NCBI GenBank assembly: GCA_029262275.1 | Contig: JAJCZS010000007.1 | Coordinates: 382,031 to 446,030 of the forward strand | Length of the DNA stretch: 64,000 nt | Reading direction: 5' to 3' | Source of the DNA: Deltaproteobacteria bacterium | Lineage (GTDB): Bacteria; Desulfobacterota_D; UBA1144; Nemesobacterales; UBA2774 | Shown here: one piece after another, positions 1,898 to 48,417 of the stretch | Numbering within the stretch: the stretch's first letter is position 1 | How the letters are laid out: each line of letters starts with the position of its first letter | Notes under the pieces: model-generated | Databases searched by the model: none | Told to the model about the DNA's origin: nothing | The model's input: only the letters and a program-made list of their open reading frames with translations | Made by a program: the position numbers and the translations under genes

Positions 1898-1903
1898 ACC
1901 ATA

Positions 1904-3747: not shown

Positions 3748-3777
3748 CGGTATAGACTATTAGGAGGTAAAAAGGGA

Positions 3778-4347
3778 TTGTTCTTCACAAATAAGAAATA
3801 TTATCTACTATTAGTGCCCGTATTAGTCTTTATGGGTTCATTGAAGGCACTTGCTTTCCCATGGTCTTTTGATATGTGGGTTCAGCCTTCATTGCTTCCA
3901 TATGAAGAACCAGTAATATATCCCGATCTCTCTGTGTCCACTACGGGTCTCAGGATAAAACCTCTACCAAGAGAAGATTTTGAAAATATGACCCAAAACC
4001 CTATAGCTACAAGCCCAGAATCGCTTGAGCAAGGTGAGAAATACTACAATAGATACTGCTATGTTTGCCACGGAATGGAAGGTATGGGCGATGGTCCTGT
4101 TATAAAAAGGGGATTCTACCCACTAAATCTAACTACACCGGGCGTAATAGCGAGAACAGATGGTTATATATATGCTTATATAAGATATGGTGGAAAAGTT
4201 ATGATGCCTAGCTATCGTGAAAGCATTACTTCCGATCAGGCTTGGGATATCGTGAATTATGTGAGAAAACTGCAAGGCAATCCAGTTAAAGAGACTGCAA
4301 CTGAACCCCCTGCAACTGAGGACACTGAACAGGAGAGCGCTGAGTAA
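3778..4347 (+). CDS. actE: ACIII monoheme cytochrome c subunit ActE.
   Basis: 189-aa protein with an N-terminal signal/anchor and a single CxxCH motif (CYVCHGMEG). A TTG start is preceded by a TAGGAGG ribosome-binding site. Confidence 0.65.
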   Translation: MFFTNKKYYLLLVPVLVFMGSLKALAFPWSFDMWVQPSLLPYEEPVIYPDLSVSTTGLRIKPLPREDFENMTQNPIATSPESLEQGEKYYNRYCYVCHGMEGMGDGPVIKRGFYPLNLTTPGVIARTDGYIYAYIRYGGKVMMPSYRESITSDQAWDIVNYVRKLQGNPVKETATEPPATEDTEQESAE

Positions 4348-4348
4348 G

Positions 4349-22507: not shown

Positions 22508-23299
22508 ATGAAATTAGGTCTTGCACTAGGCGGAGGAGGAGCCAAGGGGTTTGCGCATCTGGGAATACTGCAGGTTCTCTCTGAGGCGGGAATTGAATTT
22601 GATGTTGTAGCTGGAACCAGCATAGGAGCCTTAATTGGGGCTGTCTATGTATCTGGCAATCTGGATAGTCTTGAAAAATTTGCTACAAAAATAGGCATGA
22701 CCGATTTACCTTTTATGCTTAGGCCAACCTGGCCTAGGGGAGGGCTTCTTAGTGCTACTTATATTGAAGAACTCGTAGATAAGTTTGTAAATGTTCAGAA
22801 CATAGAGGACCTTCAAAAGCCTTTCGCTGCAGTTTGTGTAGATTTGAATAAAGCTCAGGTTGTGACTTTTTCTAAAGGCGATCTAAAGAGGGCGATAAGA
22901 GCGAGCACTTCAATTCCGGGTGTTTTTAAACCTGTATTTTATGAGGATAAAATACTAGTTGATGGGGGCATTCTGGAATCAGTACCACTAGATGCTGTTC
23001 GTTCCCTAGGGGCCGATTTTATAGTAGCTGTAGATCTCTTAAGCGACCTCTCGGGTAATCAGAACTTTAATGAAGGCAAACCTTCTATTGTTGAGATAGT
23101 GCAGAGAAGCTCTATAGTGGCACAGAGGAAAATTACAGAGTACAAATTTAAGGAAAATCCCCCTGATGTTGTTATAAGCCCACCGTTGTCTGAGGTTGGA
23201 GTTATGGATTTTCACAATGGCAAGCCTATCTTTGAATTAGGTAGAGAAGCTGCTCAAAAAGTTTTGCCAGAGCTGCTTGAAAAGCTTAAGAAGAACTAG
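22508..23299 (+). CDS. Patatin-like phospholipase.
   Basis: GGGxxG oxyanion motif (LGGGGAKG), GTSIG nucleophile elbow, and a DGG catalytic Asp motif. Confidence 0.8.
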   Translation: MKLGLALGGGGAKGFAHLGILQVLSEAGIEFDVVAGTSIGALIGAVYVSGNLDSLEKFATKIGMTDLPFMLRPTWPRGGLLSATYIEELVDKFVNVQNIEDLQKPFAAVCVDLNKAQVVTFSKGDLKRAIRASTSIPGVFKPVFYEDKILVDGGILESVPLDAVRSLGADFIVAVDLLSDLSGNQNFNEGKPSIVEIVQRSSIVAQRKITEYKFKENPPDVVISPPLSEVGVMDFHNGKPIFELGREAAQKVLPELLEKLKKN

Positions 23300-24716
23300 C
23301 TTTTAGAGTTGCTCCCTTTCTCCATTCCCAGATCAAAAATAGCCAAACAGGAACAAATTCAATCCATATAATTATATTGGTGAATATTTCTAGTTGACCT
23401 CTGGGCTCAAAATAATATCTCAGGTAATAAAGCGGTAAAAGAGCAGTTAATAAGAGCAGAGAAAACCTAGGCTTGATAGCCAACAGTGGTATAAGCCATG
23501 TGTAGTACCATGGGAATTGTGTGGGGCTAACTAAAAATGCAAAAGCGATTATATACAAACTCTTGCTAAATAGATCTGCATTCCTAAATGCTTTTCCAAA
23601 AGCTACATATAGAATCCAGATTGCAATAAGAGCAATTACGATGAACCTTGCAACCGTGTATTTATGAAATGTCTCATAGCCAAATAAGTTTAAGCCGAGC
23701 TCAGAGATGTAGACCAGTATCCTAAAAGCTGAGTCATTGTTCTGCCAGCTTTGTCCGTATGCTATAAAGCCTGAGCTTGCATCTAGGCCTGAGAGGTATA
23801 TAGGCAAAAATAAAGCTCCTATGGAAATAGCTGCTATAACAAGTACAAATAAGAGTTGCTTAGGTTTAGATATTATGGGTCTAATAATTATAGGCAATAA
23901 AAAGGCCGGCCAGAGTTTTATACCAAGCCCAATAATCAGCGTGAGTGAGGAGCGGATATATCTGTTTTGTGTAGCCGCAATTAAGGCACTAAGGACAAAA
24001 GGAAAGACTAGTACATCAAGGTGTCCTGAATTGAATATCTCTTTTAAAAGAAGGGGATTCCACCAATAGATTATAAGATAGGAGGTCGGGAGCTTTAATA
24101 TTCCTAAGGCACTAAAAATTAATGACAGAGTAGCAAGGTCCATAATTATCAGAATTATTTTCCACGTTGTCAGATTCCACGAGTCGAGTGCATAGGAGAC
24201 TGCAAAAAATGCCTGAGCCACAGGGGGATATATTGTTCTAATCTGGGGATGGTTAATACGGTGAATTATATCTCCCGATTCTTCTGCAAGCGCTACAAGC
24301 TCCTCGGGAACACCTTCTTTGTTTAATACTTCCTCAGGGGAATACTCGTAGGGATTTATAAGGTTTGCAGTTACAGCCCCGTCCCAAAGATATCTAAAAT
24401 AATCATCCTCAAGAATTGGGGCGGTGAAGAGCATCAATAATCTCAAAACAATCCCTATTCCAATCACCCATAGGATCTGTTTTTTGACTAAATCTACTTT
24501 CGGTAATTTGAAAATTGTGAATAAAAAGATGAGCCCTGCAAAAATAAGAATTCCCACGAGTGCGAGAACTGGTCTATCAATTAGAGAAATAGAATCTGCA
24601 AATTCCGGTGAAATGTATGTTATTAGACTAAAACAAATTAAAAGAAGTATTCCGGATATGATAAGTATAGAGGTTGATACTTTTCCGGAATTACCTGTTG
24701 TGGAATTATTCATCAT
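23286..24716 (-). CDS. Large polytopic membrane protein, possibly a GT-C fold glycosyl/mannosyltransferase-like (DUF2029-like) protein.
   Basis: 476-aa protein with more than 10 TM helices. Its 3' end overlaps the patatin gene end by 14 nt in convergent orientation. Confidence 0.4.
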   Translation of the reverse strand: MMNNSTTGNSGKVSTSILIISGILLLICFSLITYISPEFADSISLIDRPVLALVGILIFAGLIFLFTIFKLPKVDLVKKQILWVIGIGIVLRLLMLFTAPILEDDYFRYLWDGAVTANLINPYEYSPEEVLNKEGVPEELVALAEESGDIIHRINHPQIRTIYPPVAQAFFAVSYALDSWNLTTWKIILIIMDLATLSLIFSALGILKLPTSYLIIYWWNPLLLKEIFNSGHLDVLVFPFVLSALIAATQNRYIRSSLTLIIGLGIKLWPAFLLPIIIRPIISKPKQLLFVLVIAAISIGALFLPIYLSGLDASSGFIAYGQSWQNNDSAFRILVYISELGLNLFGYETFHKYTVARFIVIALIAIWILYVAFGKAFRNADLFSKSLYIIAFAFLVSPTQFPWYYTWLIPLLAIKPRFSLLLLTALLPLYYLRYYFEPRGQLEIFTNIIIWIEFVPVWLFLIWEWRKGATLKASSS

Positions 24717-26050: not shown

Positions 26051-27397
26051 ATGGAAGCCATATTTTCAGGAGCTAAGAGGGTAGTTCTTTATACAAGCTC
26101 AAAGCTGATTTTAACATTGAGTGTAGCAATTTTTCTATGTTCATCAGTTTTTGTGTTTAATCAGGACGCATATTCACAGGATTCAGTATGTTTAAATAGA
26201 ATAATTGAACAGATAACAGCTGATGTACTTGAAGAGAGTTTTGATCCTTCAATAAACTCAGACGGCACCTGGATTGCATTTGCATCTACCTCAGACATAA
26301 ACGGCGGGAACCCTGAGGCGAATGATGAGATATATCTCTTTAATACCGCAACCGGCGTCTTTACACAGATAACAGCTGAGACGGCTGGAGATAGTGCTCT
26401 TCCCTCGATAAACTCAGACGGCACCCGAATTGCATTTGAATCTACCTCAAACATAAACGGCGGGAACCCTGAAGGGAATGCAGAGATATACCTCTTTGAT
26501 ACTACAACCGGTGTCTTTACACAGATAACAGCTGAGACGGTTGGAGATAGTCAAGAACCCTCAATAAACTCAGACGGCACCCGAATTACATTTCGATCTA
26601 GAGCAGACATAAACGGCGGGAATCCTGGGATAGAAGATGAGATATACCTCTTTGATACTACAGCCGGTGTCATTACACAGATAACAGATGATCCAGTTGA
26701 ACCAAGTTCTAGCCCCTCAATAAACTCAGACGGCACCCGAATTGCATTTCAAACTAGAGCAGACATAAACGGTGGGAACCCTGATGGGAATAGAGAGATA
26801 TACCTCTTTGATACTACAAACGGCATCTTTACACAGATAACAGATGACCCCTCTGGCGATAGTAGCTTCGGTCCTTCAATAAACTCAGACGGCACCCGAA
26901 TTGCATTTATAACTAACGCAAACATAAACGGCGGGAACCCTGATGGGAGTTTTGAGATATACCTCTTTGATACTACGAGCGGCGTCTTTACACAGATAAC
27001 AGATGAGACGTCTGGAAGTAGTTCTGATCCCTCAATAAACTCAGACGGCAGCCTAATTGCATTTGAATCTGACTCAGATATAAACGGCGGGAACCCTGAT
27101 GGGAATGAAGAGATATACCTCTTTGATACTACAAACGGCACCACTACACAGATAACAGATGAGACGGCTGTATTTAGTTCTGATCCCTCAATAAACTCAG
27201 ACGGCACCCGAATTGCATTTGTGTCTAACGGAGGCATGAACGGCGGAAACCCTGATGAGAATGCGGAGGTTTTTCTGTCAACATGCCTGCAACCTAAAAA
27301 CGTCCCAACCCTATCTGAATGGGGATTAATAGCTATGGCAGGACTTCTTGGAATCGTAGGTTTTATGGTTGTTAGAAGAAGACAAGTTGCAGCTTAA
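26051..27397 (+). CDS. Secreted or surface beta-propeller-like repeat protein (PD40/TolB-type blades) with an IPTL-CTERM-like C-terminal sorting signal.
   Basis: N-terminal signal/anchor. Seven tandem ~52-aa repeats (PSINSDGTRIAF...INGGNP.GN.EIYLFDTT.G.FTQITD). The C-terminus NVPTLSEWGLIAMAGLLGIVGFMVVRRRQ combines a motif, a TM helix and a basic cluster. Confidence 0.7.
   Translation: MEAIFSGAKRVVLYTSSKLILTLSVAIFLCSSVFVFNQDAYSQDSVCLNRIIEQITADVLEESFDPSINSDGTWIAFASTSDINGGNPEANDEIYLFNTATGVFTQITAETAGDSALPSINSDGTRIAFESTSNINGGNPEGNAEIYLFDTTTGVFTQITAETVGDSQEPSINSDGTRITFRSRADINGGNPGIEDEIYLFDTTAGVITQITDDPVEPSSSPSINSDGTRIAFQTRADINGGNPDGNREIYLFDTTNGIFTQITDDPSGDSSFGPSINSDGTRIAFITNANINGGNPDGSFEIYLFDTTSGVFTQITDETSGSSSDPSINSDGSLIAFESDSDINGGNPDGNEEIYLFDTTNGTTTQITDETAVFSSDPSINSDGTRIAFVSNGGMNGGNPDENAEVFLSTCLQPKNVPTLSEWGLIAMAGLLGIVGFMVVRRRQVAA
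26246..27262 (+). repeat. Seven near-identical tandem coding repeats of 156 nt (one of 159 nt) inside the propeller gene.
   Basis: Repeat starts, read directly from the sequence, are 26246, 26402, 26558, 26714, 26873, 27029 and 27185. The core is nearly identical at nucleotide level, and differences are concentrated at a few codon positions. Confidence 0.85.
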
Positions 27398-29967: not shown

Positions 29968-30795
29968 ATGAAGTTTCTAAAGAATAGAGCAGTTTTAATA
30001 ACCATCGTTCTCTTTTTTATATCTTTACAGCTCTATTCTCTTAATCTCAGAGAGAGGAAAAGTCAGAACTTTATCTCTGGTCTTGTTCTAACCGTTACCT
30101 ATTATCCCCAAAAACTTATATATGTGATTTCAGACAAAGTAATAAACACCTGGCAGGACTATATGGATCTTGTAAATGTCAGGCAAGAGAATATTGAGTT
30201 AAAAGAGGATATTAAAAAGCTTAGGGTTGAAAAGTTCGAATTAGCTGAGGCTAAGATACAAAATCAGCGGCTTAAGAAGCTTTTGAATTTTAAAGAAATA
30301 CCGTCCTATCCTATAGTGCCAGCTAATGTAATAGGAGGCAGTCCCTCACTACTGCGCAGCGAAGTTATAGTGGTAGACCGAGGTAGTAGTGATGGAATAT
30401 CCCAGGGAATGCCTGTAGCTTCCTCAGAGGGCATAGTGGGCAAAGTGCTTACTGTTGGTGATAAGAGCTCTGAAATACTTCTAATAACTGATCCCTTAAG
30501 TGCTATAGACGCCTTTGTTCACAGGACCAGAGTCAGGGGCATTGTAAAGGGAGCTGAAGGAGGGTGTACAATGGAGTACATAGAGCAGAACTCTGATATT
30601 AGTGTTGGAGATAAGATTATCTCATCAGGGAAGGAAGGTTTTTTCCCAAAAGGCGTGATCATAGGCACTGTTGTAGACATTGAAACGAAAGGAAGTTTCT
30701 TGAGCGCCCAGGTATCTCCATTTGTAGATTTAGAATCTTTAGAAGAAGTTGTTATAATTCTTAAAACTAATAATAATATTGTCTTAAATGAATAA
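29968..30795 (+). CDS. mreC: Rod shape-determining protein MreC.
   Basis: N-terminal TM, then coiled coil, then a beta-rich C-terminus; positioned between mreB and mreD. Confidence 0.8.
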   Translation: MKFLKNRAVLITIVLFFISLQLYSLNLRERKSQNFISGLVLTVTYYPQKLIYVISDKVINTWQDYMDLVNVRQENIELKEDIKKLRVEKFELAEAKIQNQRLKKLLNFKEIPSYPIVPANVIGGSPSLLRSEVIVVDRGSSDGISQGMPVASSEGIVGKVLTVGDKSSEILLITDPLSAIDAFVHRTRVRGIVKGAEGGCTMEYIEQNSDISVGDKIISSGKEGFFPKGVIIGTVVDIETKGSFLSAQVSPFVDLESLEEVVIILKTNNNIVLNE

Positions 30796-31279
30796 GTACC
30801 TGTCCATAATATTCTTAGTATTGGTTTCGGTAATCTTTATTACCATACAGTCCACGCTCCTTTCTCCGCATAATCTTGGCGATTACTATCCTGATCTAAA
30901 TCTAATTCTAATTGTTTTTCTAGCCATTTTTTCAGAAATAAGGGGGGGCTTCTTCTTGGCCCTTGGCAATGGATACATGATGGATGTGCTTTCAGGCAAC
31001 TTGCCCGGCACATTCACTATATCAAGATTGAGTGCTTATTTGTTAGTGCGAAGCGGGTCAAACCATGTTTATTTAAAAAAGTCTCTCATTCAGGGGCTTG
31101 TTATTTTCTTTGCTACAATTTTTACATGGATTTTTATTCTAACTATCATTACAATAAAGAAAGATGATAGTTTTGATATAACGGCAAAGTCTATACTGAT
31201 TCAAGGTATAGTTAATGCTATAGTCGGCGTTCCAATTTTTTGGATGATACACAGGGTAAATGCAAGATTTCAGAAATAG
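30788..31279 (+). CDS. mreD: Rod shape-determining protein MreD.
   Basis: 163-aa polytopic membrane protein that overlaps the mreC end. Confidence 0.7.
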   Translation: MNKYLSIIFLVLVSVIFITIQSTLLSPHNLGDYYPDLNLILIVFLAIFSEIRGGFFLALGNGYMMDVLSGNLPGTFTISRLSAYLLVRSGSNHVYLKKSLIQGLVIFFATIFTWIFILTIITIKKDDSFDITAKSILIQGIVNAIVGVPIFWMIHRVNARFQK

Positions 31280-35414: not shown

Positions 35415-36224
35415 ATGTATAAAACAAAATTAATATTTTCTGTTCTTTTGTTGTTTATATTTCTTTCAGTAGAATCAGTATTTGCACTTACTGATTCTAG
35501 AGATGTAAAAGATATTGGTATTGATGAAAGATTAGGGGAATTTATACCGGGCGAAATTACACTTACTGATGAAAATAATGAGCCTGTTGTTTTTGAAGAC
35601 CTGTTATCTAAAGATACCCCCACTGTTTTGAATCTTGTTTATTATAGTTGCCCTAAGCTTTGCAATTTTGCTGCAGACGGATTATTAAAAGTTGTGAATG
35701 AGACAGAGTCTCTTGAATTAGGTAAGGATTTTAAATTGCTGACAGTCAGCTTTGATCCAAAAGATTCACCTGAGTTGGCTGCTAAAAAAGCACTTAAATA
35801 TCGAAACGCTACAAAGAGGGTCTTGACAAGCAAACAAGACTGGCCTTTCTTTGTGGGGGATGAAGAAAACATAGAAAAGTTGACTGAGTCTGTAGGTTTC
35901 AGGTACAAATTAGATGGTGAGGAATTCGCACATGCCTCAGCTTTGATTGTAATTACACCTGAGGGAAGAATTTCCAGATATCTCTACGGGATTCAGCATG
36001 TGCCATCTGATTTTAGGCTTTCCTTGCTTGAAGCATCAAAAGGGGAGATAGGATCTTCAAAGTTATTAAATAGCGTGTTACTGTTTTGCTATGGGTTTGA
36101 TCCTGTTGGAAAAAAATACGCGCTTAAAGCTCTCAATATTGTTAAAGCTGGTGGCGTGGTTACATTGTTAACCCTGAGTGTTGGTTTAACATACTTTTGG
36201 AGAAGAGAAAATAGAACCGGATGA
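35415..36224 (+). CDS. sco: SCO1/SenC family copper chaperone (thioredoxin fold) for CuA assembly.
   Basis: CPKLC redox/copper motif and conserved His, with a C-terminal TM helix. It lies directly upstream of coxB. Confidence 0.75.
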   Translation: MYKTKLIFSVLLLFIFLSVESVFALTDSRDVKDIGIDERLGEFIPGEITLTDENNEPVVFEDLLSKDTPTVLNLVYYSCPKLCNFAADGLLKVVNETESLELGKDFKLLTVSFDPKDSPELAAKKALKYRNATKRVLTSKQDWPFFVGDEENIEKLTESVGFRYKLDGEEFAHASALIVITPEGRISRYLYGIQHVPSDFRLSLLEASKGEIGSSKLLNSVLLFCYGFDPVGKKYALKALNIVKAGGVVTLLTLSVGLTYFWRRENRTG

Positions 36225-36252
36225 ATAGAGATGGAGGTTTAAAAGATAACAG

Positions 36253-37191
36253 ATGACTTGGATTCCAGAGGCAGCATCAAATCTCGCAGGCAAAGTAGAT
36301 GGAGTACTATTAGTAATTACTCTTATCTCTATATTCTTCTTTGTTCTGATATCTGCAGTTTTGATTTACTTTGCAGTGAAGTACAGAAGAAGAAGAGAAG
36401 ATGAAGAAACCCCCTATATAACCGGTAATGAGACTTTCGAAATTATATGGACTGTAATACCATCCATCTTACTAATACTTCTATTTGTTTACGGATATGT
36501 AGTATACAAAGACATGAGAACTCCTCCCAAAGATGCTGTTGATATTACTGTTACAGGTAAACAGTGGCTTTGGACATTTGATTATTACAATGGCAAAAAA
36601 ACATTAAACGAATTATATGTGAAGCAAAACGTGCCTGTCAGAATGATAATGAGGGCTGATGATGTTCTTCACAGTTTCTTTATTCCGCAATTCAGAGTTA
36701 AGCAAGATATTCTTCCAGGTAGGTATACACAACTCTGGTTTATTCCTACTAAGGTTGGAACTTTTGATATATTTTGCGCGGAGTATTGCGGCACAGGCCA
36801 TTCAGCCATGTTAGGAAAAGTAATAGTGCTTAGCCCTGAAGCTTATGATATATGGGAGAAGGGTATAGGTATGGACGACGGCGCAGCTGTGTCCTCGCTA
36901 CCTCCAGCTGAGCTTGGAGAAAAGATTTATAAACAAAAGGGCTGTAACGCATGTCACAGTCTTGACGGTAGTGTTGTTATTGGTCCGTCATTTAAAGGGC
37001 TTTTTGGTAGAACAGGTGTATTGGAAAATGGTAAAAGTTACACAGCTGACGAAAATTATTTAATAGCTTCGATTTATGAACCGCAGGAAGAAATAGTAGA
37101 AGGATTTCAACCTGTGATGCCTTCATTTAAAGGTATACTAAGCGAGAATGAAGTAGATGCTGTTATAGCATTTATAAAGACTTTAAAATAA
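36253..37191 (+). CDS. coxB: Cytochrome c oxidase subunit II with a fused C-terminal cytochrome c domain (caa3-type).
   Basis: CuA site (H...CAEYCGTGHSAM) and a C-terminal CNACH heme c motif. Confidence 0.9.
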   Translation: MTWIPEAASNLAGKVDGVLLVITLISIFFFVLISAVLIYFAVKYRRRREDEETPYITGNETFEIIWTVIPSILLILLFVYGYVVYKDMRTPPKDAVDITVTGKQWLWTFDYYNGKKTLNELYVKQNVPVRMIMRADDVLHSFFIPQFRVKQDILPGRYTQLWFIPTKVGTFDIFCAEYCGTGHSAMLGKVIVLSPEAYDIWEKGIGMDDGAAVSSLPPAELGEKIYKQKGCNACHSLDGSVVIGPSFKGLFGRTGVLENGKSYTADENYLIASIYEPQEEIVEGFQPVMPSFKGILSENEVDAVIAFIKTLK

Positions 37192-37219
37192 GGGTTTAAT
37201 AATTTAGGAGGAAATTTAA

Positions 37220-38833
37220 ATGGCAAATCATACAGTTGCCACAAATGTATATGTTCCGTTTTTAGAGCAAAAGGGCTTTTTGTCCTGGTTTCTAACAACT
37301 GATCATAAACGAATCGGAATTCTATACTTGATTTCTATCTCTTTATTCTTTTTAATAGCCGGCGTTTTAGCGCTGCTTATGAGATTTGAGCTCATGACTC
37401 CAATGTCCGATTTTGTAAGTCCACATACCTACAATGTGCTATTCACATTGCACGGCTCTTTGATGGTCTTTTTCTTCATCGTTCCTGGGCTTGCTGCAAG
37501 TTTTGGTAATTTCCTTATACCCCTTATGATTGGTGCTCCAGATGTTGCCTTCCCAAAGCTTAATTTAGCTAGTTATTGGATATATATAGTGGGAGCTATC
37601 ATTACTCTAATTGCGCTACTATCACCAGCTGATACTGGCTGGACATTCTATACCCCTTACAGTGCGACTACGGATACAGATGTTGTAATGATTACCTTTG
37701 GAGTTTTTGTTCTGGGTTTCTCCTCGATTCTTACTGGAATGAACTTTATTGTTACAATTCATAAAATGAGAGCCCCCGGAATGACGTGGCATCGTTTGCC
37801 GCTATTTATATGGGCTTCCTATGCAACAGCAGTTCTTCAGCTTCTTGCAACTCCAGTTGTTGGTATAACACTTCTTATGCTTATTGCTGAGAGAAGTCTT
37901 GGAGTAGGTTTCTTTGATCCTGCTAAAGGTGGAGATCCTGTACTTTTTCAGAACTTCTTCTGGTTTTACTCACACCCTGCTGTGTACATCATGATCATTC
38001 CAGCTATGGGAGTTATATCAGAAATAATTCCGGTATTTGCTCGTAAACCTATATTTGGCTATAAGGCTATTGCCTATTCAAGTCTTGGTATTGCTTTTAT
38101 AAGCTTTTTGGTTTGGGCTCACCATATGTTTACTAGTGGTATCTCTGAGGTTGCAGCCACGATCTTCTCATTCTTAACTTTCTTAGTTGCTATTCCAACA
38201 GCGATCAAGGTTTTTAACTGGACCGCTACACTATATAAAGGTTCAATTGAGCTCCATTCAGCTATGTTATACGCGCTTGGATTCATCTTCCTATTTACAA
38301 TAGGGGGACTAACAGGAGTTTTCTTAGGAGCGCTTGCTGTAGATATTCATCTTCACGACACCTATTTTGTTGTGGCTCATATGCACTATGTAATGATTGG
38401 TGGAACAGTTATGGGGTTCTTTGGAGCACTTCATTTCTGGTACCCAAAATGGTTTGGCAAGATGTTTAACGAATCAGTTGCCAAACTTGCATGGTTCCTA
38501 GTTTTCGTTGGTTTCAATATTACGTTCTTCCCTCAATTTTTCTTAGGAATCCAGGGTATGCCTAGAAGATATGCTACGTATCCAGAGGAGTTTGAATCCC
38601 TTATGGCTCTATCTACATACGGGTCATGGATATTGGGTCTAGGTGTTCTAATAATGACAGTGAATCTTATAAAAGGACTTTTCAGTGATGAAAAAGCGCC
38701 TCAGAATCCATACGGATCTCTTTCTCTTGAATGGCAGGTGCCTTCACCACCGCCAACCCTAAATTTTGATAAAATTCCTATAGTAACAGATTGGACTTAT
38801 GGTTACGGTAAAAAGAAAGAGGTGGATGCTTAA
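37220..38833 (+). CDS. coxA: Cytochrome c oxidase subunit I.
   Basis: 537-aa protein with 12 TM helices and conserved His ligands ([19 protein letters not shown]). Confidence 0.9.
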
Positions 38834-38834
38834 A

Positions 38835-39446
38835 ATGGAACAAGCTAATATGGATCACGCTGAAGGCCACGACCTTCATTTGACACCAGAGCAAGAATAC
38901 GGCATTTCTAAGCTTGGCATGTGGCTATTTCTGGGAACAGAAATTATGCTTTTCGGAGGTCTCTTTGCTGCTTATGCAATATTTAGAGCTAAGTACCCTG
39001 AAATGTTTTTAGAGTCCCATCAAGAACTTAACCGTGAAATGGGAGCCGTAAACACCTGCATATTAATCTTCAGCAGTTTAACAATGGCCATTGGGGTTAC
39101 CGCGATACAAAGAGGTAAACAGATGCTTGCCGGTATTATGATTCTGGTTACCATAATATGCGGTCTGGGATTTGGAGTTGTTAAATATTTTGAGTACGGT
39201 GCAAAATTTGCACACCACATTTATCCTGACACAAATATATTCTTCTCACTTTACTTCATGATGACCGGTCTTCATATGTTACATGTCTTTATAGGTCTTG
39301 CTGTCCTTGGAGTAATAATGGTATTAACCTTTAAGGGTAAATTTAATGAAAAATATAGCACTCCCGTAGAGATGGGTGGGTTGTACTGGCATTTAGTGGA
39401 TTTAGTATGGATTTATCTTTTCCCATTACTTTATTTAGTAGGATAG
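38835..39446 (+). CDS. coxC: Cytochrome c oxidase subunit III.
   Basis: Polytopic membrane protein located after coxA. The ATG at 38835 lies 1 nt after the coxA stop; the ORF-track start at 38799 would overlap coxA. Confidence 0.8.
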   Translation: MEQANMDHAEGHDLHLTPEQEYGISKLGMWLFLGTEIMLFGGLFAAYAIFRAKYPEMFLESHQELNREMGAVNTCILIFSSLTMAIGVTAIQRGKQMLAGIMILVTIICGLGFGVVKYFEYGAKFAHHIYPDTNIFFSLYFMMTGLHMLHVFIGLAVLGVIMVLTFKGKFNEKYSTPVEMGGLYWHLVDLVWIYLFPLLYLVG

Positions 39447-39462
39447 ATGGAGGCAAAAATAA

Positions 39463-39771
39463 ATGAGCGAACACACACATAGTCAAGAAAAGCATATAAC
39501 AAGTTATAAAACATATTTCATAGTTTGGGTAGCCCTTATGGTGCTCACATTTGTTACGGTCTATATTTCGTATCTAGATTTTGGCCAATTAAATATTGTA
39601 ATTGCGATGGTTGTAGCATCAATCAAAGCAGGTGCAGTTGCGCTGTTCTTTATGCATCTTAAATTCGAGGATTCAATTACTTGGCTATTTGCTCTATTTC
39701 CAATAGCACTTCTCTTTTTGTTAATAGGAATGACCATACTCGATACATTCACAAGAATTTTTCCTATATAG
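39463..39771 (+). CDS. coxD: Cytochrome c oxidase subunit IV (prokaryotic caa3 small subunit).
   Basis: 102-aa protein with three TM helices, located directly after coxC. Confidence 0.6.
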   Translation: MSEHTHSQEKHITSYKTYFIVWVALMVLTFVTVYISYLDFGQLNIVIAMVVASIKAGAVALFFMHLKFEDSITWLFALFPIALLFLLIGMTILDTFTRIFPI

Positions 39772-39785
39772 ATGGTTAATTATTT

Positions 39786-40640
39786 ATGATAGGCAAAATT
39801 TCCCTTTTTCTACTCTTTATTCTCTTTATATGGGGAAACCTAGTTGCAGGACTCCACGCTGGGCTTGGATGTCCAGACTGGCCACTGTGTTATGGTGAAG
39901 TGGTTCCTCCTTATAGATGGGATACTTATATGGAGTTTATGCACCGAGTGATTGGCGCTATAACTTCAATATTCTTAGCAATATTCTGTTATCAAAGATT
40001 TCGTTCTTACAATGGATTCGCTAAGTTTATACCCATTCTTATAATTCTGCTTCTTATTTTTCAGATCATTCTTGGTGGAATTGTAGTAATAATGGAGCTC
40101 CCTGTTGATCTTACAACTTTCCATTTTGCAAATGCCATGGTGATTTTTGCCCTGGTCCTTTATATGCTCTACTTTGATGGTATCTATAGAAAACCTCAAT
40201 TTAGTCTTTCAGGATACGGAGGGATCTTTTTCTTTCTGAGTATTGTCATTTTTATTCAACTGGTGTTGGGAGCATATGTTAGGCACTCAAGCTCTGGGCT
40301 TGCATGTCCAGATTTTCCTACCTGTCTTGGATATTTGATACCACCAGAGCTCTCGGGGTTAATACTCAATCACTTTGCACATAGAACGCTAGCCTATTTA
40401 ATAACAATAATTGTAGCAGTAATGCTGATTGCTTCGTATACATCTAAAGCACTTAAAAAGTACCAATTTGAGCTTTTATTACTAATTGGGTTTATAGTAC
40501 TTCAGATTCTCTTAGGTGCGGGTGTTGTGCTGACAAAACTACAGTTTGCAGTGACAGCCTTACACTTAACTGTTGCGCTTCTAATATTCTATACTGCACT
40601 ATATGCTTGGTTTCGGGGTATGCAGGAAAGTAGTGTATAA
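39786..40640 (+). CDS. ctaA: Heme A synthase CtaA.
   Basis: Polytopic protein with paired Cys loops (GCPDWPLC, ACPDFPTC) and conserved His residues. Confidence 0.8.
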   Translation: MIGKISLFLLFILFIWGNLVAGLHAGLGCPDWPLCYGEVVPPYRWDTYMEFMHRVIGAITSIFLAIFCYQRFRSYNGFAKFIPILIILLLIFQIILGGIVVIMELPVDLTTFHFANAMVIFALVLYMLYFDGIYRKPQFSLSGYGGIFFFLSIVIFIQLVLGAYVRHSSSGLACPDFPTCLGYLIPPELSGLILNHFAHRTLAYLITIIVAVMLIASYTSKALKKYQFELLLLIGFIVLQILLGAGVVLTKLQFAVTALHLTVALLIFYTALYAWFRGMQESSV

Positions 40641-40681
40641 TTTTTTCAAAATCTGATTTTTTTATAGAGACTTCATAAAAG

Positions 40682-41590
40682 ATGGAACAGGTAGAGAAAG
40701 CACCCTCAAATATCGTAGTATCAACTATCCTATTATCAAAGCCGGGGATTATTGTAAGTGTTGCTTTTACAGGTTTTGCGGGGATGGTTTTAGCATCAAG
40801 AGCACTTCCAGACTTAACTACTATAGTTATAACTATGTTAGCACTACTACTTAGTGCGGCCGGGTCGGCCATACTCAATAACGTATTGGATAAACAAATA
40901 GATCTCCTTATGAACAGGCTAAGCAAAAGGGCTCAGGCGCTTGAATCAGTGGGAGAGAAAACAGCAATATTTATTGCAAGTCTATTTATCATAATCTCAC
41001 TATTTCTCTCTTTCTATTATTTAAATTATATAACAGCACTCTTAATTATTGCAGCTATATTGAGCTATACGCTGCTCTATACTTTGTATCTAAAGAGAAG
41101 CTCACCATATGGAACAATCTTAGGTGGCCTTCCAGGCGCGCTTCCTGTTCTTATTGGATATGCAGCGATACAGCCTCATATAGGACTTGATGGATATATA
41201 CTTTTTGCTTTTATGATGCTTTGGCAGCCGCCTCATTTCTGGGCTCTGGCACAGAAATACAAGTTAGACTATAAAAAAGCAGGAGTTCCTGTTATGCCCG
41301 TTGCAATGGGAGCTAAGTTTACGAATATAATGATATTAATTTATTCAATCTCTCTCTTGCCACTGTCGCTTTCTTTCTGGTTTCTAGGGTATACATCTGC
41401 CTATTTTGCAATATTGGCACTTATATTTGGGGGATATTTCGAATACACCATAATAAGAAGTACTATGACCAATTCCGGTTATGGAAAAGCCTTTGCTATA
41501 TCCATTATTTATATGTTAGCTATAATGGCAGCCTTGATACTGGATCTGTCATTTGGATCGACGGCTAGTGCAGTGACTACTCTTTATTAA
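40682..41590 (+). CDS. ctaB: Protoheme IX farnesyltransferase (heme O synthase).
   Basis: UbiA-family prenyltransferase located immediately after ctaA; 302 aa. Confidence 0.8.
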   Translation: MEQVEKAPSNIVVSTILLSKPGIIVSVAFTGFAGMVLASRALPDLTTIVITMLALLLSAAGSAILNNVLDKQIDLLMNRLSKRAQALESVGEKTAIFIASLFIIISLFLSFYYLNYITALLIIAAILSYTLLYTLYLKRSSPYGTILGGLPGALPVLIGYAAIQPHIGLDGYILFAFMMLWQPPHFWALAQKYKLDYKKAGVPVMPVAMGAKFTNIMILIYSISLLPLSLSFWFLGYTSAYFAILALIFGGYFEYTIIRSTMTNSGYGKAFAISIIYMLAIMAALILDLSFGSTASAVTTLY

Positions 41591-45719: not shown

Positions 45720-46682
45720 ATGAGAATATTCATAATAATACTGTTTTTGGCTCTTTTTTTAACTCAAAATACTTATGCAGAGGATGTTTCTGGAAGCTCA
45801 GATCATCCAATGGTTTCCAGATATGAAGGATCATCTATTACAGATTATGATTTCAGAGAATTTGATGAGTATGAAATACTACTAGGCAAAGTTAAGCGCG
45901 ACCCAGAGAGTCCCTCGGACAAAATAGCAGAATCCAGTGAGGCCCTGGAAGGGAAAGTAACAAGAATATCTTATTATCTGCCAGAGGATCGTTCTACTCT
46001 AGAGGTTTTTAGAAATTATGAAGACGCTCTTAAAGCAGCCGGGTTTGAGATACTTTTTACTTGTACTAATAACGAGTGTGGCGGCAGGGACTTTAACCAC
46101 AAGGTTGTTGAGTATTCAGCTGGATTTGGTGATAACTATTCAGAGCAAAGATTTCTAGCAGCCAAGCTTGCGAGAGATGAAGGTGATGTCTATGTCTCCC
46201 TATATACAGTTAAGAACACTTCAGGTGGTGGACCTGACAGAAATCACATCTACACCCAAGTTGATGTGATCGAAGTTGCTCCTATGCAAGAGGCTATGGT
46301 CACTGTGGATGCAAAGGCCATGGCCGAGGAGATATTTGAAACTGGCAGCATCTCCATATACGGAATTCTTTTTGACTTTGATAAGGCCGATATTAAGCCT
46401 GAATCAGCAGCTACAATTAAAGAAATAGCTTCACTTCTAACCAACAATCCCAATCTCAAGTTATTTATTGTTGGGCATACCGATAATAAAGGGAGCTTAG
46501 ATTACAATACGAATCTATCTCAAAAAAGGGCAGAAGCTGTTGTAGGTGTTTTAGTTTCAGACCACGGGATTGCATCTTCAAGAGTAACTCCCAAGGGGCT
46601 TGGCTTTTTGGCCCCAGTAGCATCTAACAGCTCAGAAGACGGAAGAGCTAAGAACAGAAGAGTTGAGTTGGTAGAATACTAA
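45720..46682 (+). CDS. OmpA-family protein (C-terminal OmpA/MotB peptidoglycan-binding domain) with signal peptide.
   Basis: C-terminal FDFDKADIKPES...VGHTDNKGS..YN..LSQKRAEAV motif. Confidence 0.75.
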   Translation: MRIFIIILFLALFLTQNTYAEDVSGSSDHPMVSRYEGSSITDYDFREFDEYEILLGKVKRDPESPSDKIAESSEALEGKVTRISYYLPEDRSTLEVFRNYEDALKAAGFEILFTCTNNECGGRDFNHKVVEYSAGFGDNYSEQRFLAAKLARDEGDVYVSLYTVKNTSGGGPDRNHIYTQVDVIEVAPMQEAMVTVDAKAMAEEIFETGSISIYGILFDFDKADIKPESAATIKEIASLLTNNPNLKLFIVGHTDNKGSLDYNTNLSQKRAEAVVGVLVSDHGIASSRVTPKGLGFLAPVASNSSEDGRAKNRRVELVEY

Positions 46683-46771: not shown

Positions 46772-46803
46772 TAAAAAAGGGGGCTCAAGGCCCCCTTTTT
46801 CGT
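46772..46803. terminator. Bidirectional rho-independent terminator between convergent genes.
   Basis: AAAAAA-GGGGGC-tcaag-GCCCCC-TTTTT. It is symmetric, with A/T runs on both sides. Confidence 0.75.
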
Positions 46804-46819
46804 TTGCAAACTTGTTTTC

Positions 46820-47080
46820 TTACTTAGCTGCGTCGTCTTCCATTTCGCCGCCAGGCATTTCGCCCATAGCATCTTTTCCAGCTGCTTCAGCGTCTTCCAT
46901 AGCGCCTTTAGCTGCATCTTCAGCATCATCTGCCATTTCGCCACCAGGTATTTCACCTGCAGGATCTGCTGCAGCTTCATGGTGCTCAGCGATTGCTGAC
47001 TGTGTACTAACTAATGTAGATCCCCCAAAGGACAAACCCATAACTAACATTAACGCAAAAACAAAAGTAACTACTCTCAT
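46820..47080 (-). CDS. Small secreted acidic Met/His-rich protein.
   Basis: The ATG at 47080 is preceded by a GGAGG ribosome-binding site. A signal peptide (MRVVTFVFALMLVMGLSFGGSTLVSTQSAIA) leads into a mature ~55-aa peptide (EHHEAA...GEIPGGEMADD...GEMPGGEMEDDAAK) that contains internal repeats. Confidence 0.55.
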   Translation of the reverse strand: MRVVTFVFALMLVMGLSFGGSTLVSTQSAIAEHHEAAADPAGEIPGGEMADDAEDAAKGAMEDAEAAGKDAMGEMPGGEMEDDAAK

Positions 47081-47310
47081 ATCTAAAACCTCCTTCTTGT
47101 GATTTGCTAACGGATTTTCTCCGGCTAGCTTACTATTATCAAACGTTATAATTTGCAATATTTATACCACTTTCCTGCCTATATAGAATAAGCAGTAATT
47201 ACCACCGCTTAGATATTCTATCACCTTTCTTCACCAATGAAAAGCCTATTTAATGTGTACAATTACACAGCTCAAACTGCGCAATTTCGCACATTCCTTA
47301 TTGTTTAATA

Positions 47311-48417
47311 TCAACAAAAATGTCTGAGCGCTTTCCTCATTTTAGAAACAGATAGTTTTCTAAGGGCCTTTTTCTCTATCTGCCTAATTCTTTCCCTTGT
47401 GAGCTTAAATTTCTTGCCTATATCATCGAGTGTAACTGTATCATCTCTGTCTATTCCAAAACGCATTCTAAGTACTTCTTCTTCTTTGGGCGTTAAAAGT
47501 GACAGGGAATGCCTAATGCTTTGTTTTAATTCCTTATCAACTATCAAAGAGTCTGGAGAAGCAGATTCTTCATTCTCTATAAAGTCATATAAAGTTCTTT
47601 TTTCTCCATCAATAGGTGAATCTAAGCTCACAGAATCATTGGTTATTTTTAGTATTCTCTTTACATATTTTACAGATACTCCAGAGTGATCTGATATCTC
47701 TTGGGTAGATGGATTCTTACCTGTTTTTTTAATTAATATAGCCCTGGTTCTATATACTCTGCTTGTAACTTCAAGCAAATACACAGGGACCCTGACTACT
47801 CCTTTATGGACTAGGATTGCTCTTGTTATTGACTGGTATATCCACCAGGAAGCATATGTAGAGAATCTGTAACCCTTAGTGTAATCAAAGCGGTCTATAG
47901 ATCTCATAAGTCCAATATTGCCTTCCTGTATTAGATCGAGAAAAGGAAGCCCATGGTTAACGTATCTCTTGGCTATACTAATAACTAATCTTAAATTCGC
48001 GTTGGCAAATCTCTTTTTTAATTCCTTAGCTTTTTCTGTGTAAGCTCTATGTGAGGCCTCTAGTCTCTGAATGTCATTTTGTCTATTTGATTCTTGAGAT
48101 ATTTCTCCCAGCAATGATTTAATCTGCGCGGCTTTTGATTCACACTTCTTAATCTGTGCAGGAATCTCTATTTCTTGCCTTATATCTAGAAGCGGCTCAC
48201 TTGCAATATCTTGGAAGTAATTATTGAGCAACCTATATTGATTGTCAGGTGATTGCTGGGTTTTATTATTATATTTCGAAATTTCTTCATTTGCTTCCTC
48301 TTCTGATTCTTGATGATTTAACTCAAAATCCATTTCCCCTTCTGCTTCAAATTGTTCTCCAGAATTCTTAGGTGTATCCGATAGGTCTTCAAACTGATTA
48401 ATTTCCACATTTTTCAT
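47311..48417 (-). CDS. rpoD: Primary-like sigma-70 family RNA polymerase sigma factor (RpoD/SigA-like, lacking region 1.1).
   Basis: Region 2 (DLIQEGNIGLMRSIDRFDYTKGYRFSTYASWWIYQSI) and a region 4 HTH are present. It has an acidic N-terminal extension; 368 aa. Confidence 0.75.
   Translation of the reverse strand: MKNVEINQFEDLSDTPKNSGEQFEAEGEMDFELNHQESEEEANEEISKYNNKTQQSPDNQYRLLNNYFQDIASEPLLDIRQEIEIPAQIKKCESKAAQIKSLLGEISQESNRQNDIQRLEASHRAYTEKAKELKKRFANANLRLVISIAKRYVNHGLPFLDLIQEGNIGLMRSIDRFDYTKGYRFSTYASWWIYQSITRAILVHKGVVRVPVYLLEVTSRVYRTRAILIKKTGKNPSTQEISDHSGVSVKYVKRILKITNDSVSLDSPIDGEKRTLYDFIENEESASPDSLIVDKELKQSIRHSLSLLTPKEEEVLRMRFGIDRDDTVTLDDIGKKFKLTRERIRQIEKKALRKLSVSKMRKALRHFC

What the first reader, a model, noticed from the sequence alone, without database searches (positions are those of the whole stretch)
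46820..47080. Small secreted acidic peptide with His-His and repeated GE[IM]PGGEM motifs: a candidate periplasmic metal (Cu/Zn) binding peptide
After a classical signal peptide, the mature ~55-aa product is very acidic (Asp/Glu/Ala-rich). It begins with EHHE and carries two copies of a Met-containing motif (GEIPGGEMADD and GEMPGGEMEDD). Met- and His-rich acidic periplasmic peptides are typical metal buffers or chaperones. The gene has its own strong ribosome-binding site and a bidirectional terminator downstream.
Basis: partly seen in the sequence, partly recalled or inferred. Interest (0 to 1): 0.5.

Follow-up and report, generated by a model that had tools for sequence, protein, structure and literature searches.

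The report
Small secreted acidic peptide, Dadabacteria-specific
This is a real, conserved gene for a tiny, very acidic, probably unstructured exported peptide found only in Dadabacteria-type bacteria; its predicted mature end (Glu-His-His-Glu) looks like a classic copper/nickel-binding tip, but that tip is missing in most relatives, so metal binding is plausible and unproven.

Summary
An 86-codon ORF on the minus strand (47080 to 46820) has an AAGGAGG ribosome-binding site, a hairpin terminator shared with a convergent gene, an N-terminal signal-like segment and a 55-residue acidic tail carrying two GE[IM]PGGEM-DDA motifs.

It is a true gene. About 90 distinct homologs exist, all in Dadabacteria/Thermodesulfobacteriota MAGs. 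dN/dS is about 0.2 and length changes stay in frame. It matches nothing in Pfam, NCBIfam, PDB or the literature.

The metal reading is only partly supported.
- **Histidine:** it occurs only at predicted mature positions 2 and 3, which makes an ATCUN-type NH2-X-X-His plus a His-His pair. 55 of 83 parsable members have no His at all.
- **Methionine:** only one Met per motif is conserved, and one member keeps a single Met.
- **Context:** no cop/cus/czc or msrPQ genes lie in the 64 kb. A caa3 oxidase operon with SCO1 lies 5 kb away.

The family-wide features are the signal segment, a universal [AVS]-x-A cleavage site, 1–3 motif copies and extreme acidity.

The gene has its own conserved control region: two CRP-like TGTG-N8-CACA palindromes 24 bp apart, an extended −10 and a structured ~130-nt leader.

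Verdict: an uncharacterised, lineage-specific exported disordered peptide. Cation binding (Cu/Ni in this sub-lineage) is the best guess, not a finding.

The parts
46820..47080 (-). Coding sequence of the 86-aa precursor (stop codon 46820-46822 included)
   Evidence: About 90 distinct homologs. dN/dS 0.17-0.22.
46988..47080 (-). Codons 1-31: signal-like segment MRVVTFVFALMLVMGLSFGGSTLVSTQSAIA (n-region Arg2, hydrophobic core, [AVS]-x-A site)
   Evidence: This is the most conserved part of the family. AlphaFold2 gives a helix at 2-19 with pLDDT 76-88. The [AVS]-x-A site is present in 83/83 parsable members.
46823..46987 (-). Codons 32-86: predicted mature 55-aa polyanionic peptide
   Evidence: Composition. 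Block-mean pLDDT is 44-65 over this part, consistent with disorder.
46976..46987 (-). Codons 32-35, E-H-H-E: predicted mature N-terminus, an ATCUN-type X-X-His plus adjacent His-His
   Evidence: In homologs His occurs only at mature positions 2 and 3 (His3 in 28 of 83, His2 in 21 of 83, none elsewhere). The His3 codon varies synonymously, CAT/CAC.
46922..46957 (-). Motif copy 1, GEIPGGEMADDA (residues 42-53)
46829..46864 (-). Motif copy 2, GEMPGGEMEDDA (residues 73-84), followed by the C-terminal AK
   Evidence: Nearly invariant C-terminus GE.PGGEM.DDAAK. Also.
47089..47095 (-). Ribosome-binding site AAGGAGG, 8 nt before the ATG
   Evidence: AGGAGG is conserved in all aligned loci.
46773..46801 (.). 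G+C-rich hairpin terminator between the peptide gene and the convergent OmpA-like gene
   Evidence: 12 pairs, 6 GC, T-run on the minus strand. A hairpin is conserved at the same place in other loci, with a changed stem sequence in L007-L009.
47106..47129 (-). Leader hairpin P2 (GCTAGCCGGA-GAAAA-TCCGTTAGC), just upstream of the invariant AAATCA and the RBS
   Evidence: Predicted by RNAalifold. 95% of cells paired, 5 of 8 pairs with changes on both sides. For the two hairpins together, 0 of 500 shuffles reach the observed covariation score, and slid controls collapse.
47189..47211 (-). Leader hairpin P1 (TAAGCGGT-GGTAATT-ACTGCTTA), at the predicted 5' end of the mRNA
   Evidence: One search lists it as terminator-like. 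82.5% paired across 25 loci, with 11 G-U cells at one pair and 3 pairs changed on both sides. Support is weaker than for P2.
47215..47243 (-). Promoter-like site: TTTTCA, 17 nt, TAGAAT, with TG extension (TGATAGAAT)
   Evidence: TGATA[GAC]AAT is conserved at -142 to -147 from the ATG in most loci. The transcription start is inferred, not mapped.
47254..47269 (.). Operator-like palindrome 2, TGTGTAATTGTACACA (TGTG-N8-CACA, CRP-type spacing)
   Evidence: It is the only perfect match in the 64-kb window. It lies at -171 to -193 from the ATG (-189 in the window) in 31 of 37 distinct upstream regions, plus a one-mismatch copy in L047, and also in the distant homolog locus L048, which has a different upstream gene.
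47278..47293 (.). Operator-like palindrome 1, TGTGCGAAATTGCGCA (one mismatch to TGTG-N8-CACA), exactly 24 bp upstream of palindrome 2
   Evidence: The 24-bp spacing is constant across 27 of the 37 distinct upstream regions; L038 has 23 bp and L047 22 bp.

Best explanation
The gene encodes a Sec-exported pre-peptide. Signal peptidase I cuts it after the invariant Ala31. This releases a roughly 55-residue, intrinsically disordered, strongly polyanionic peptide into the periplasm or the medium. There it acts as a low-complexity cation binder or buffer.

**Family-wide working parts.** The carboxylate-rich chain carries 1-3 copies of a flexible G-E-x-P-G-G-E-M-x-D-D-A unit.

**In the window's sub-lineage.** The new N-terminus E-H-H-E adds an ATCUN-type Cu(II)/Ni(II) site (free amine plus His3) and an adjacent His-His pair. 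Together with the motif methionines, this resembles the copper-capturing N-terminus of Ctr1.

**Expression.** The gene is autonomous and regulated. It has an extended -10 promoter preceded by two CRP/FNR-type palindromes, a structured leader of about 130 nt, a strong RBS and its own terminator.

**Shown:** the gene is real and under purifying selection; the conservation pattern; the composition; the likely disorder; the conserved control region.

**Inferred:** export, the cleavage position, any metal binding, and which metal.
For: - **Real gene.** 58 homologs by sequence search. 9 genome loci and 34 metagenome loci. dN/dS 0.17 in the signal part and 0.22 in the C-terminal motif. Length variants are always in frame.
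- **Export and cleavage.** Arg2, a hydrophobic helix at 2-19 and [AVS]-x-A followed by D/E/Q/G/A in 83 of 83 parsable members. The distant members P0060, P0061, P0063, P0064 and P0070 also keep it, while the alternative G-G-A/S site becomes G-N-x in several of them.
- **Disorder and acidity.** Block-mean pLDDT 44-65 beyond residue 20. Net charge about -15, no aromatic residues or Cys. Asp+Glu 33% versus 12% background.
- **ATCUN logic.** His occurs only at mature positions 2 and 3 and never elsewhere in any homolog. Position 2 varies (H/N/S/E) while His3 stays. The definition NH2-X-X-His is taken from PMC12509749. The combination of ATCUN, His-His and a Met motif in Ctr1(1-14) is from the abstract of PMC9117721.
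- **Methionine.** Enriched four-fold. The Met in GGEM is conserved in at least 90% of aligned members.
- **Autonomous regulated unit.**. The same palindrome is seen, and a similar leader element by eye, in L048, which has a different upstream gene.
Against: - No metal binding was or could be measured.
- 55 of 83 members have no His, so the ATCUN site cannot be the family's common function.
- Methionine count in the mature part falls to 1-2 in several members. The first hydrophobic motif position is freely M/I/L/T/V/A. This argues against a Met-only Cu(I) site.
- No cop, cus, czc, pco, msrPQ or metal-sensor gene lies in the 64-kb window.
- The leader matches no known metal riboswitch.
- The signal segment is more conserved than the mature part and contains G15-xxx-G19. 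This could mean it stays in the membrane.
- The cleavage site was not predicted by a trained tool.
Confidence: 0.4

Rival explanations
1. The repeated G-E-x-P-G-G-E-M-x-D-D-A units are short linear docking motifs. The exported disordered peptide works by binding a protein partner, for example a periplasmic sensor, an enzyme or an envelope protein. It would act as regulator, adaptor or signal, and metals would play no essential part.
For: - The conserved unit is a discrete 12-residue motif with Gly-Gly and one fixed hydrophobic residue, set in otherwise freely varying acidic sequence.
- Copy number varies from 1 to 3, as is usual for linear motifs.
- The C-terminal copy and the D-D-A-A-K end are the most conserved mature part.
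- Expression appears to be regulated by a transcription-factor operator pair.
Against: - No partner is identifiable.
- Downstream neighbours are not conserved.
- The only conserved neighbour is a cytoplasmic sigma factor, and it is absent in some loci.
- This reading does not explain the restriction of His to mature positions 2 and 3.
Confidence: 0.2
2. The hydrophobic N-terminus is not cleaved. The product would then be a small single-pass membrane protein (N-in, C-out) that displays an acidic tail at the outer face of the inner membrane. It might associate through its GxxxG-like face with a membrane complex.
For: - The N-terminal 20 residues are nearly invariant and more conserved than the tail. 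They contain G15-L-S-F-G19-G20.
- Hydrophobic character runs with interruptions to residue 25.
- AlphaFold2 is confident only for this helix.
Against: - A [AVS]-x-A site followed by an acidic residue is kept in every member, at a fixed distance, with a variable bulky residue at -2. This is the classic signal peptidase I pattern.
- The helix is broken by Gly-Gly at 19-20.
- Disordered low-complexity tails normally evolve faster than any hydrophobic segment, so the conservation contrast is weak evidence.
Confidence: 0.15
3. It is a functional analogue of MrpX: a periplasmic peptide whose methionines are sacrificially oxidised by reactive chlorine or oxygen species and then re-reduced by a periplasmic methionine sulfoxide reductase.
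For: - MrpX is likewise a small, signal-peptide-bearing protein made almost entirely of Met and charged residues (PMC4436054).
- Here the mature peptide is 42% charged and its Met is enriched four-fold.
Against: - Met is 9% here and 6.5% on average over the 42 aligned members, against 20% in MrpX.
- Some members keep 1-2 Met.
- No yedYZ/msrPQ and no ECF SigF/NrsF pair lies in the 64-kb window. mrpX sits in a yedYZ-mrpX operon.
Confidence: 0.08
4. The ORF is a chance open frame in an intergenic region and no peptide is made.
For: It is short, low-complexity and unannotated. Overlapping frames on both strands are also open.
Against: - It is conserved as an intact ORF in more than 40 loci, with in-frame length changes.
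- dN/dS is about 0.2 with saturated synonymous sites between distant pairs.
- The RBS and terminator are conserved.
Confidence: 0.01

Closest known systems
N-terminal ectodomain of the copper importer Ctr1 (ATCUN + His-His + Met motif)
   Same: Both are short, disordered and extracytoplasmic. Both have NH2-X-X-His at the free N-terminus next to a His-His pair and Met-containing motifs. In Ctr1 these bind Cu(II)/Ni(II), Cu(I)/Ag(I) or both (PMC9117721 abstract).
   Different: There is no homology. Here the peptide is free rather than part of a transporter. The Met motif is GE-x-PGGEM rather than MxMxxM. The peptide is far more acidic. The His part is missing in most family members.
Disordered His/Met-rich periplasmic copper-handling segments and proteins (PcoB N-terminal domain; PcoE/SilE-type 'metal sponges', the latter from my own knowledge)
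   Same: Exported, intrinsically disordered, poorly conserved in sequence, and proposed to bind Cu through His and Met (PMC12509749).
   Different: Those are His-rich (17 His in the Caulobacter PcoB N-terminal domain) and are encoded in pco/sil resistance operons. This peptide has 0-2 His, is dominated by Asp/Glu/Ala and sits among housekeeping genes. It has no Pfam match.
MrpX, the periplasmic methionine-rich hypochlorite scavenger of Azospira suillum
   Same: A small signal-peptide-bearing peptide composed of Met plus charged residues.
   Different: Met is 20% in MrpX versus 9% here. mrpX lies in a yedYZ-mrpX operon under ECF SigF, and none of these is present here.
Lpp/OprI alanine-zipper lipoproteins (NF040598)
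   Same: A small exported protein with an Ala-rich, helix-prone central stretch. The profile hit is weak (E=0.1, 13 bits).
   Different: The score is far below the 43-bit cutoff. There is no lipobox Cys anywhere in the family. The match is compositional.

Membership tests
Sec-type signal peptide cleaved by signal peptidase I | Positively charged n-region, hydrophobic h-region, c-region with small uncharged residues at -1 and -3; no lipobox Cys; no twin-arginine | tested here: met
   Rule-based reading only. Arg2, a 16-residue hydrophobic core and A-I-A before Glu32. [AVS]-x-A in 83/83 members. No Cys, a single Arg. The helix ends at the Gly-Gly.
Sec-type signal peptide cleaved by signal peptidase I | Prediction by a trained predictor (SignalP/DeepTMHMM) or experimental processing | not testable with these tools
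   No such predictor is available, and the long c-region (12 residues after the Gly-Gly) leaves the site formally uncertain.
ATCUN (amino-terminal Cu(II)/Ni(II)) motif | His at position 3 of the chain, residue 2 not Pro | tested here: met
   Relative to the predicted cleavage site the window peptide starts E-H-H-E. The same holds in 28 of 83 parsable members plus P0002, P0005 and P0023. It does not hold in the other 55.
ATCUN (amino-terminal Cu(II)/Ni(II)) motif | Free alpha-amino group two residues before the His (i.e. cleavage exactly after Ala31) | not testable with these tools
   This depends on the real processing site. It is supported only indirectly, by the positional restriction of His.
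Known periplasmic copper proteins (CusF, CopC/PcoC, PCuAC, CopK, PcoE/SilE, CopM) | Sequence match to the family profile | tested here: not met
   No Pfam family at E<=0.1. The only NCBIfam hit is compositional. The PDB profile search gives nothing below E=0.66.
MrpX-type methionine-rich scavenger | About 20% Met; encoded with yedYZ (msrPQ); ECF SigF/NrsF control | tested here: not met
   Met is 9.1% here and 6.5% on average over the 42 aligned members. No YedY/YedZ or ECF pair lies in 64 kb. The criteria come from PMC4436054.
Lpp/OprI alanine-zipper lipoprotein | Lipobox with Cys at +1; profile score above cutoff | tested here: not met
   13.2 bits versus a cutoff of 43. No Cys in any member.
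CRP/FNR-type operator (for the upstream palindromes) | Inverted repeat TGTGA-N6-TCACA (= TGTG-N8-CACA) upstream of a promoter | tested here: met
   Sequence pattern only. Two sites lie 24 bp apart in 27 of 37 distinct upstream regions. The site is unique in the window. The binding protein is unknown, and no Crp/Fnr-family gene lies in the window.
Known riboswitch or leader families (Rfam) | Covariance-model match at the gathering score | tested here: not met
   0 hits in the window at gathering threshold. In the permissive scan only chance-level hits appear, almost all on the terminator hairpin.

The most novel reading that the evidence does not exclude
The peptide is an unmodified, ribosomally made, secreted copper ligand. 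In the His-bearing sub-lineage the ATCUN/His-His tip captures Cu(II). The Met/carboxylate repeats then hold or hand over Cu(I), either for delivery to the nearby SCO1/caa3 oxidase assembly line or as an extracellular copper-complexing agent. The His-less relatives would be the ancestral, generic cation-buffering form. On this reading the family records the recent gain of a specific metal site on a disordered polyanionic scaffold, switched on by a CRP/FNR-type regulator.
Probability: 0.12. Interest if true: 0.7.

Novelty: new variant of a known kind. Interest (0 to 1): 0.4.

Why it matters
Small secreted disordered peptides are almost never annotated, and their functions are rarely known. This one is kept with a roughly 260-nt dedicated control region in a densely coded genome (about 92% coding in this window). 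That suggests it does something useful for a widespread, uncultured marine and sediment lineage.

If the ATCUN reading holds, the family would be a natural experiment. The same scaffold exists with and without a high-affinity Cu(II)/Ni(II) tip, and the two forms can be compared directly with synthetic peptides. It could also bear on how these bacteria supply copper to their caa3 oxidase.

If it does not hold, the finding is still a clean new family of exported small proteins with a defined motif and a candidate regulon marker, the paired TGTG-N8-CACA sites.

Tried and rejected
- **Known protein families.** Pfam and NCBIfam scans of the peptide gave nothing usable. The PDB profile search gave nothing.
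- **Distant relatives.** A profile search of 1.84 billion representative proteins found only 15 clusters. All were family members, fragments, or one long protein matching only the hydrophobic segment. There are no domain fusions and no distant relatives in other phyla.
- **Literature.** Text searches for the motif and signal sequences gave 0 papers.
- **Known RNA families.** Rfam at the gathering score gave 0 hits. The permissive scan gave only chance hits, almost all on the terminator.
- **Structure.** AlphaFold2 confidence is too low beyond the signal helix for a fold search to mean anything, so none was run.
- **Functional link to the upstream sigma factor (e.g. anti-sigma).** Rejected. The sigma is an RpoD-like group 1/2 factor, and the peptide has its own promoter. 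It also occurs without the sigma in L017-L020, L027 and L048-L050.
- **Double-glycine bacteriocin leader, lipoprotein, Tat signal.** Rejected on sequence: the core is continuously hydrophobic, there is no Cys and no RR.
- **RTX or EF-hand calcium motifs.** GGEMEDDAA resembles GGxGxDxUx at only 3 of 4 key positions, and the copies are isolated. No profile hit.
- **Fur-box reading of the AT-rich leader elements.** Rejected by eye (8 of 18 matches).
- **Alternative contexts.** Neighbours in L017-L027 are secreted beta-propeller/GSDH-like proteins, a Cys-rich repeat protein and a transposase. They gave no functional clue.

Full report
**1. The observation**

On the minus strand an ATG at 47080 opens an 86-codon frame that ends with TAA at 46822-46820. 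AAGGAGG lies 8 nt upstream of the ATG.

Downstream, a 12-pair hairpin with 6 G-C pairs (46801..46773) is followed by a T-run. It is flanked symmetrically by an A-run. The convergent OmpA-like gene (DUF4892 + OmpA, 45720-46682) ends about 90 nt away. 'Bidirectional terminator' is therefore a fair description, although the scan flagged only the minus-strand orientation.

The product is MRVVTFVFALMLVMGLSFGGSTLVSTQSAIA / EHHEAAADPAGEIPGGEMADDAEDAAKGAMEDAEAAGKDAMGEMPGGEMEDDAAK. The part after Ala31 has 18 Asp+Glu, 15 Ala, 8 Gly, 5 Met, 2 His and 3 Lys. It has no Cys or aromatic residues, and its net charge is about -15.

Against the 58 other proteins of the window:
- Asp+Glu is enriched 2.7-fold (p=5e-5).
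- Ala is enriched 3.9-fold.
- Met is enriched 4-fold (p=0.009).
- His is not enriched (p=0.26).

The DNA pattern for P-G-G-E-M occurs twice in 64 kb, both times here, against 0.01 expected.

**2. It is a real gene, confined to one lineage**

A search of 5.8 billion proteins returned 58 homologs of 53-124 aa. None is named, apart from 'hypothetical protein' from Thermodesulfobacteriota MAGs. Scans of genome and metagenome contigs added 9 and 34 loci. The named ones are Thermodesulfobacteriota, Candidatus Dadabacteria or 'Deltaproteobacteria' MAGs.

A full HMM search of 1.84 billion representative proteins found only 15 clusters at E<1e-3. The family is therefore narrow.

Across 36 distinct coding sequences, dN/dS is 0.17 for codons 1-31 and 0.22 for the last 14 codons. 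Synonymous sites are saturated between distant pairs. All length differences are in frame. A chance ORF is excluded.

There is no match in Pfam, NCBIfam or PDB sequences, and no trace in the held literature.

**3. What is conserved and what is not**

The alignment and the tabulation of 83 parsable distinct sequences show five things.

(a) *The N-terminal segment.* MR[VL]x[TS][FY]xFALMLVMG[LV]SFGG is nearly invariant.

(b) *The cleavage site.* A site [AVS]-x-A followed by D/E/Q/G/A is present in 83 of 83. It has a variable bulky residue at -2, which is the textbook signal peptidase I pattern. The only other candidate site, G-G-A/S, becomes G-N-x in distant members such as P0060, P0061 and P0064. 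Ala31|Glu32 is thus the only universally compatible site.

(c) *Histidine.* His is absent from 55 of 83 members. Where it is present it occupies only predicted mature positions 2 and 3 and never any other position. His3 is present in all 28 His-bearing members and His2 in 21. Position 2 varies (EHHE, DHHE, ENHE, DNHE, ESHE, EEHE), and the His3 codon varies synonymously.

(d) *The motif.* It is G-E-[MILTVA]-[PQAE]-G-[GSD]-[ED]-M-x-[DN]-[DEG]-A. Only the second hydrophobic residue (Met) is conserved in at least 90% of aligned members. Copy number is 2 in most members, 3 in several (P0003, P0007, P0023, P0060, P0061, P0064) and 1 in some (L035, P0053, L033). Met count in the mature part ranges from 1 to 8 in full-length members.

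(e) *The C-terminus.* GE.PGGEM.DDAAK is the best-conserved mature segment.

AlphaFold2, using the family alignment, is confident only for a helix at residues 2-19 (block-mean pLDDT 88 and 76). Block-mean pLDDT from residue 21 on is 44-65, with a tentative Ala-rich helix at 53-70. This fits a signal peptide followed by a disordered chain.

**4. Surroundings**

Upstream on the same strand lies an RpoD-like sigma-70 gene (47311-48417). RecG lies beyond it on the opposite strand.

The sigma-then-peptide order, with a gap of 250-270 nt, is kept in all nine species-level genome loci and in the distant three-repeat member P0061. What lies downstream of the peptide varies.

The peptide gene also occurs with no sigma nearby:
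- In L017-L020 and L027 it has a different upstream module. It sits among secreted beta-propeller/GSDH-like proteins, a Cys-rich repeat protein and a transposase.
- In L048-L050 it follows an unrelated 288-aa protein.

The sigma adjacency is therefore mostly clade synteny, not an operon.

The rest of the window is housekeeping and aerobic respiration:
- alternative complex III (83-5599);
- a caa3-type oxidase operon with SCO1/SenC, CtaA and CtaB (35415-41590, about 5 kb from the peptide);
- 2-oxoglutarate dehydrogenase and MreBC/PBP2/RodA.

There is no cop/cus/czc/pco, no msrPQ, no ECF sigma/anti-sigma pair and no Crp/Fnr-family regulator in the 64 kb.

**5.

Alignment of the upstream DNA from 35-37 distinct loci shows the following.
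- Two TGTG-N8-CACA palindromes lie exactly 24 bp apart, at -213 and -189 from the ATG in the window (47278-47293 and 47254-47269). This is the CRP-type half-site and spacing.
- The second palindrome is the only perfect match in the window. It reappears upstream of the distant homolog in L048, which has a different upstream gene.
- An extended -10 (TGATAGAAT, 47215-47223) follows. It implies a leader of about 130 nt.
- Hairpin P2 (47106-47129) is predicted by RNAalifold. It is 95% paired across 25 loci, with changes on both sides at 5 of 8 pairs.
- For P1 and P2 together, no shuffle out of 500 reaches the observed covariation, and slid controls collapse to 17-51% paired.
- Hairpin P1 (47189-47211) is supported more weakly, at 82.5% paired with many G-U pairs.
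- Invariant single-stranded blocks (TGGTA..ATTGC and GCAAATCA) flank P2.
- No Rfam family matches.

The transcription start, the regulator and the role of the leader are all inferred.

**6. Mechanism**

The best-supported reading is a Sec-exported pre-peptide cut after Ala31. This releases a disordered polyanion with 1-3 flexible acidic motifs. Its most economical activity is cation binding or buffering outside the cytoplasm.

In the window's sub-lineage the new N-terminus E-H-H-E fits the ATCUN definition NH2-X-X-His (PMC12509749) and carries an adjacent His-His pair. Together with Met-bearing motifs this parallels the Cu-capturing N-terminus of Ctr1, where ATCUN, HH and a Met motif bind Cu(II)/Ni(II) and Cu(I)/Ag(I) (PMC9117721 abstract).

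His occurs only at positions 2 and 3 of the predicted mature chain, with His3 as the constant one. This is the strongest single argument both for the cleavage site and for a Cu(II)/Ni(II) site.

The site is a derived feature, however. The most distant members and most close ones lack it, and at least one lineage has DNQE where its relatives have DNHE. The family's common function must therefore rest on the acidic chain and the GE.PGGEM.DDA units. For these, hard-cation binding and protein docking are about equally defensible.

I put 0.4 on the cation-binder model, including Cu/Ni for this sub-lineage. The rivals are:
- a docking-motif ligand, 0.2;
- an uncleaved signal-anchored membrane protein, 0.15;
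- an MrpX-like methionine scavenger, 0.08. MrpX has 20% Met and sits in a yedYZ operon under an ECF sigma (PMC4436054), and none of this is seen here.

**7. Comparison and novelty**

The peptide is not a member of any described family; every profile test failed. It works, at best, like the known disordered His/Met copper-handling segments (PcoB N-terminal domain, PcoE/SilE, Ctr1 N-terminus). It differs from them in three ways: it is overwhelmingly acidic, it is poor in His, and it is encoded among housekeeping genes under what looks like CRP/FNR-type control. I class it as a new variant of a known kind, namely small exported disordered ion-binding peptides, with function unproven.

**8. Verdict**

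Interest is moderate (0.4). The object is clean, conserved and uncharacterised, and it makes a sharply testable prediction with synthetic peptides. The host is uncultured, though, and nothing here yet contradicts expectations for a lineage-specific secreted small protein.

Noticed in passing
window 47254-47293 (both strands): Two CRP-type palindromes (TGTG-N8-CACA) lie exactly 24 bp apart upstream of the peptide promoter, and are conserved across 27 of the 37 distinct upstream regions. One copy also stands before the distant homolog in L048, which has a different upstream gene. The perfect copy is unique in the 64-kb window, and no Crp/Fnr-family gene lies in the window.
   Followed up: partly
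window 47081-47211, minus strand: A conserved leader of about 130 nt. It has a covarying hairpin (47106-47129), a weaker 5' hairpin (47189-47211) and invariant single-stranded blocks (TGGTA..ATTGC, GCAAATCA). It has no Rfam match and is a candidate new cis-regulatory leader.
   Followed up: partly
L017, L018, L019, L020, L027 (metagenome contigs PVMK01/SMUX01/SMUY01): Nearly identical copies of the peptide gene sit in at least three unrelated contexts, next to secreted beta-propeller/GSDH-like proteins, a 157-161-aa secreted protein of unknown family, TPR-like proteins or an IS3-type transposase. They share a different conserved upstream module with a TATAAT box. This suggests duplication or mobility of the gene in that lineage.
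   Followed up: partly
window 46802-46819, minus strand; same place in L001-L005: A perfect 10-bp palindrome GTTTGCAAAC lies between the stop codon and the terminator and is conserved in the closer relatives. Its role is unknown.
   Followed up: no
window 35415-41590: A caa3-type cytochrome c oxidase operon: SCO1/SenC copper chaperone, COX2 with a fused cytochrome c domain, COX1, COX3, COX4, CtaA and CtaB. It is the only copper-dependent system in the window and lies 5 kb from the peptide gene.
   Followed up: partly
window 83-5599: An alternative complex III gene set: molybdopterin/4Fe-4S subunit, NrfD-like ActC, ActD, a cytochrome c subunit, and a 416-aa protein with no Pfam hit. The organism is thus an aerobic respirer using ACIII plus caa3.
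   Followed up: no
window 26051-27397: A PD40/WD40-like beta-propeller protein ending in an IPTL-CTERM sorting motif.
   Followed up: no
window 23286-24716 (minus), 4349-5599 (plus) and 30788-31279 (plus): Proteins of 476 aa, 416 aa and 163 aa with no Pfam family at E<=1e-5. The 163-aa one follows mreC and may be MreD.
   Followed up: no
L035 (1001-1153) and L033/L034: Natural short forms of the peptide. L035 has a single motif copy, as if the two repeats had recombined. L033/L034 have a degenerate first copy. They could serve as natural deletion variants.
   Followed up: no
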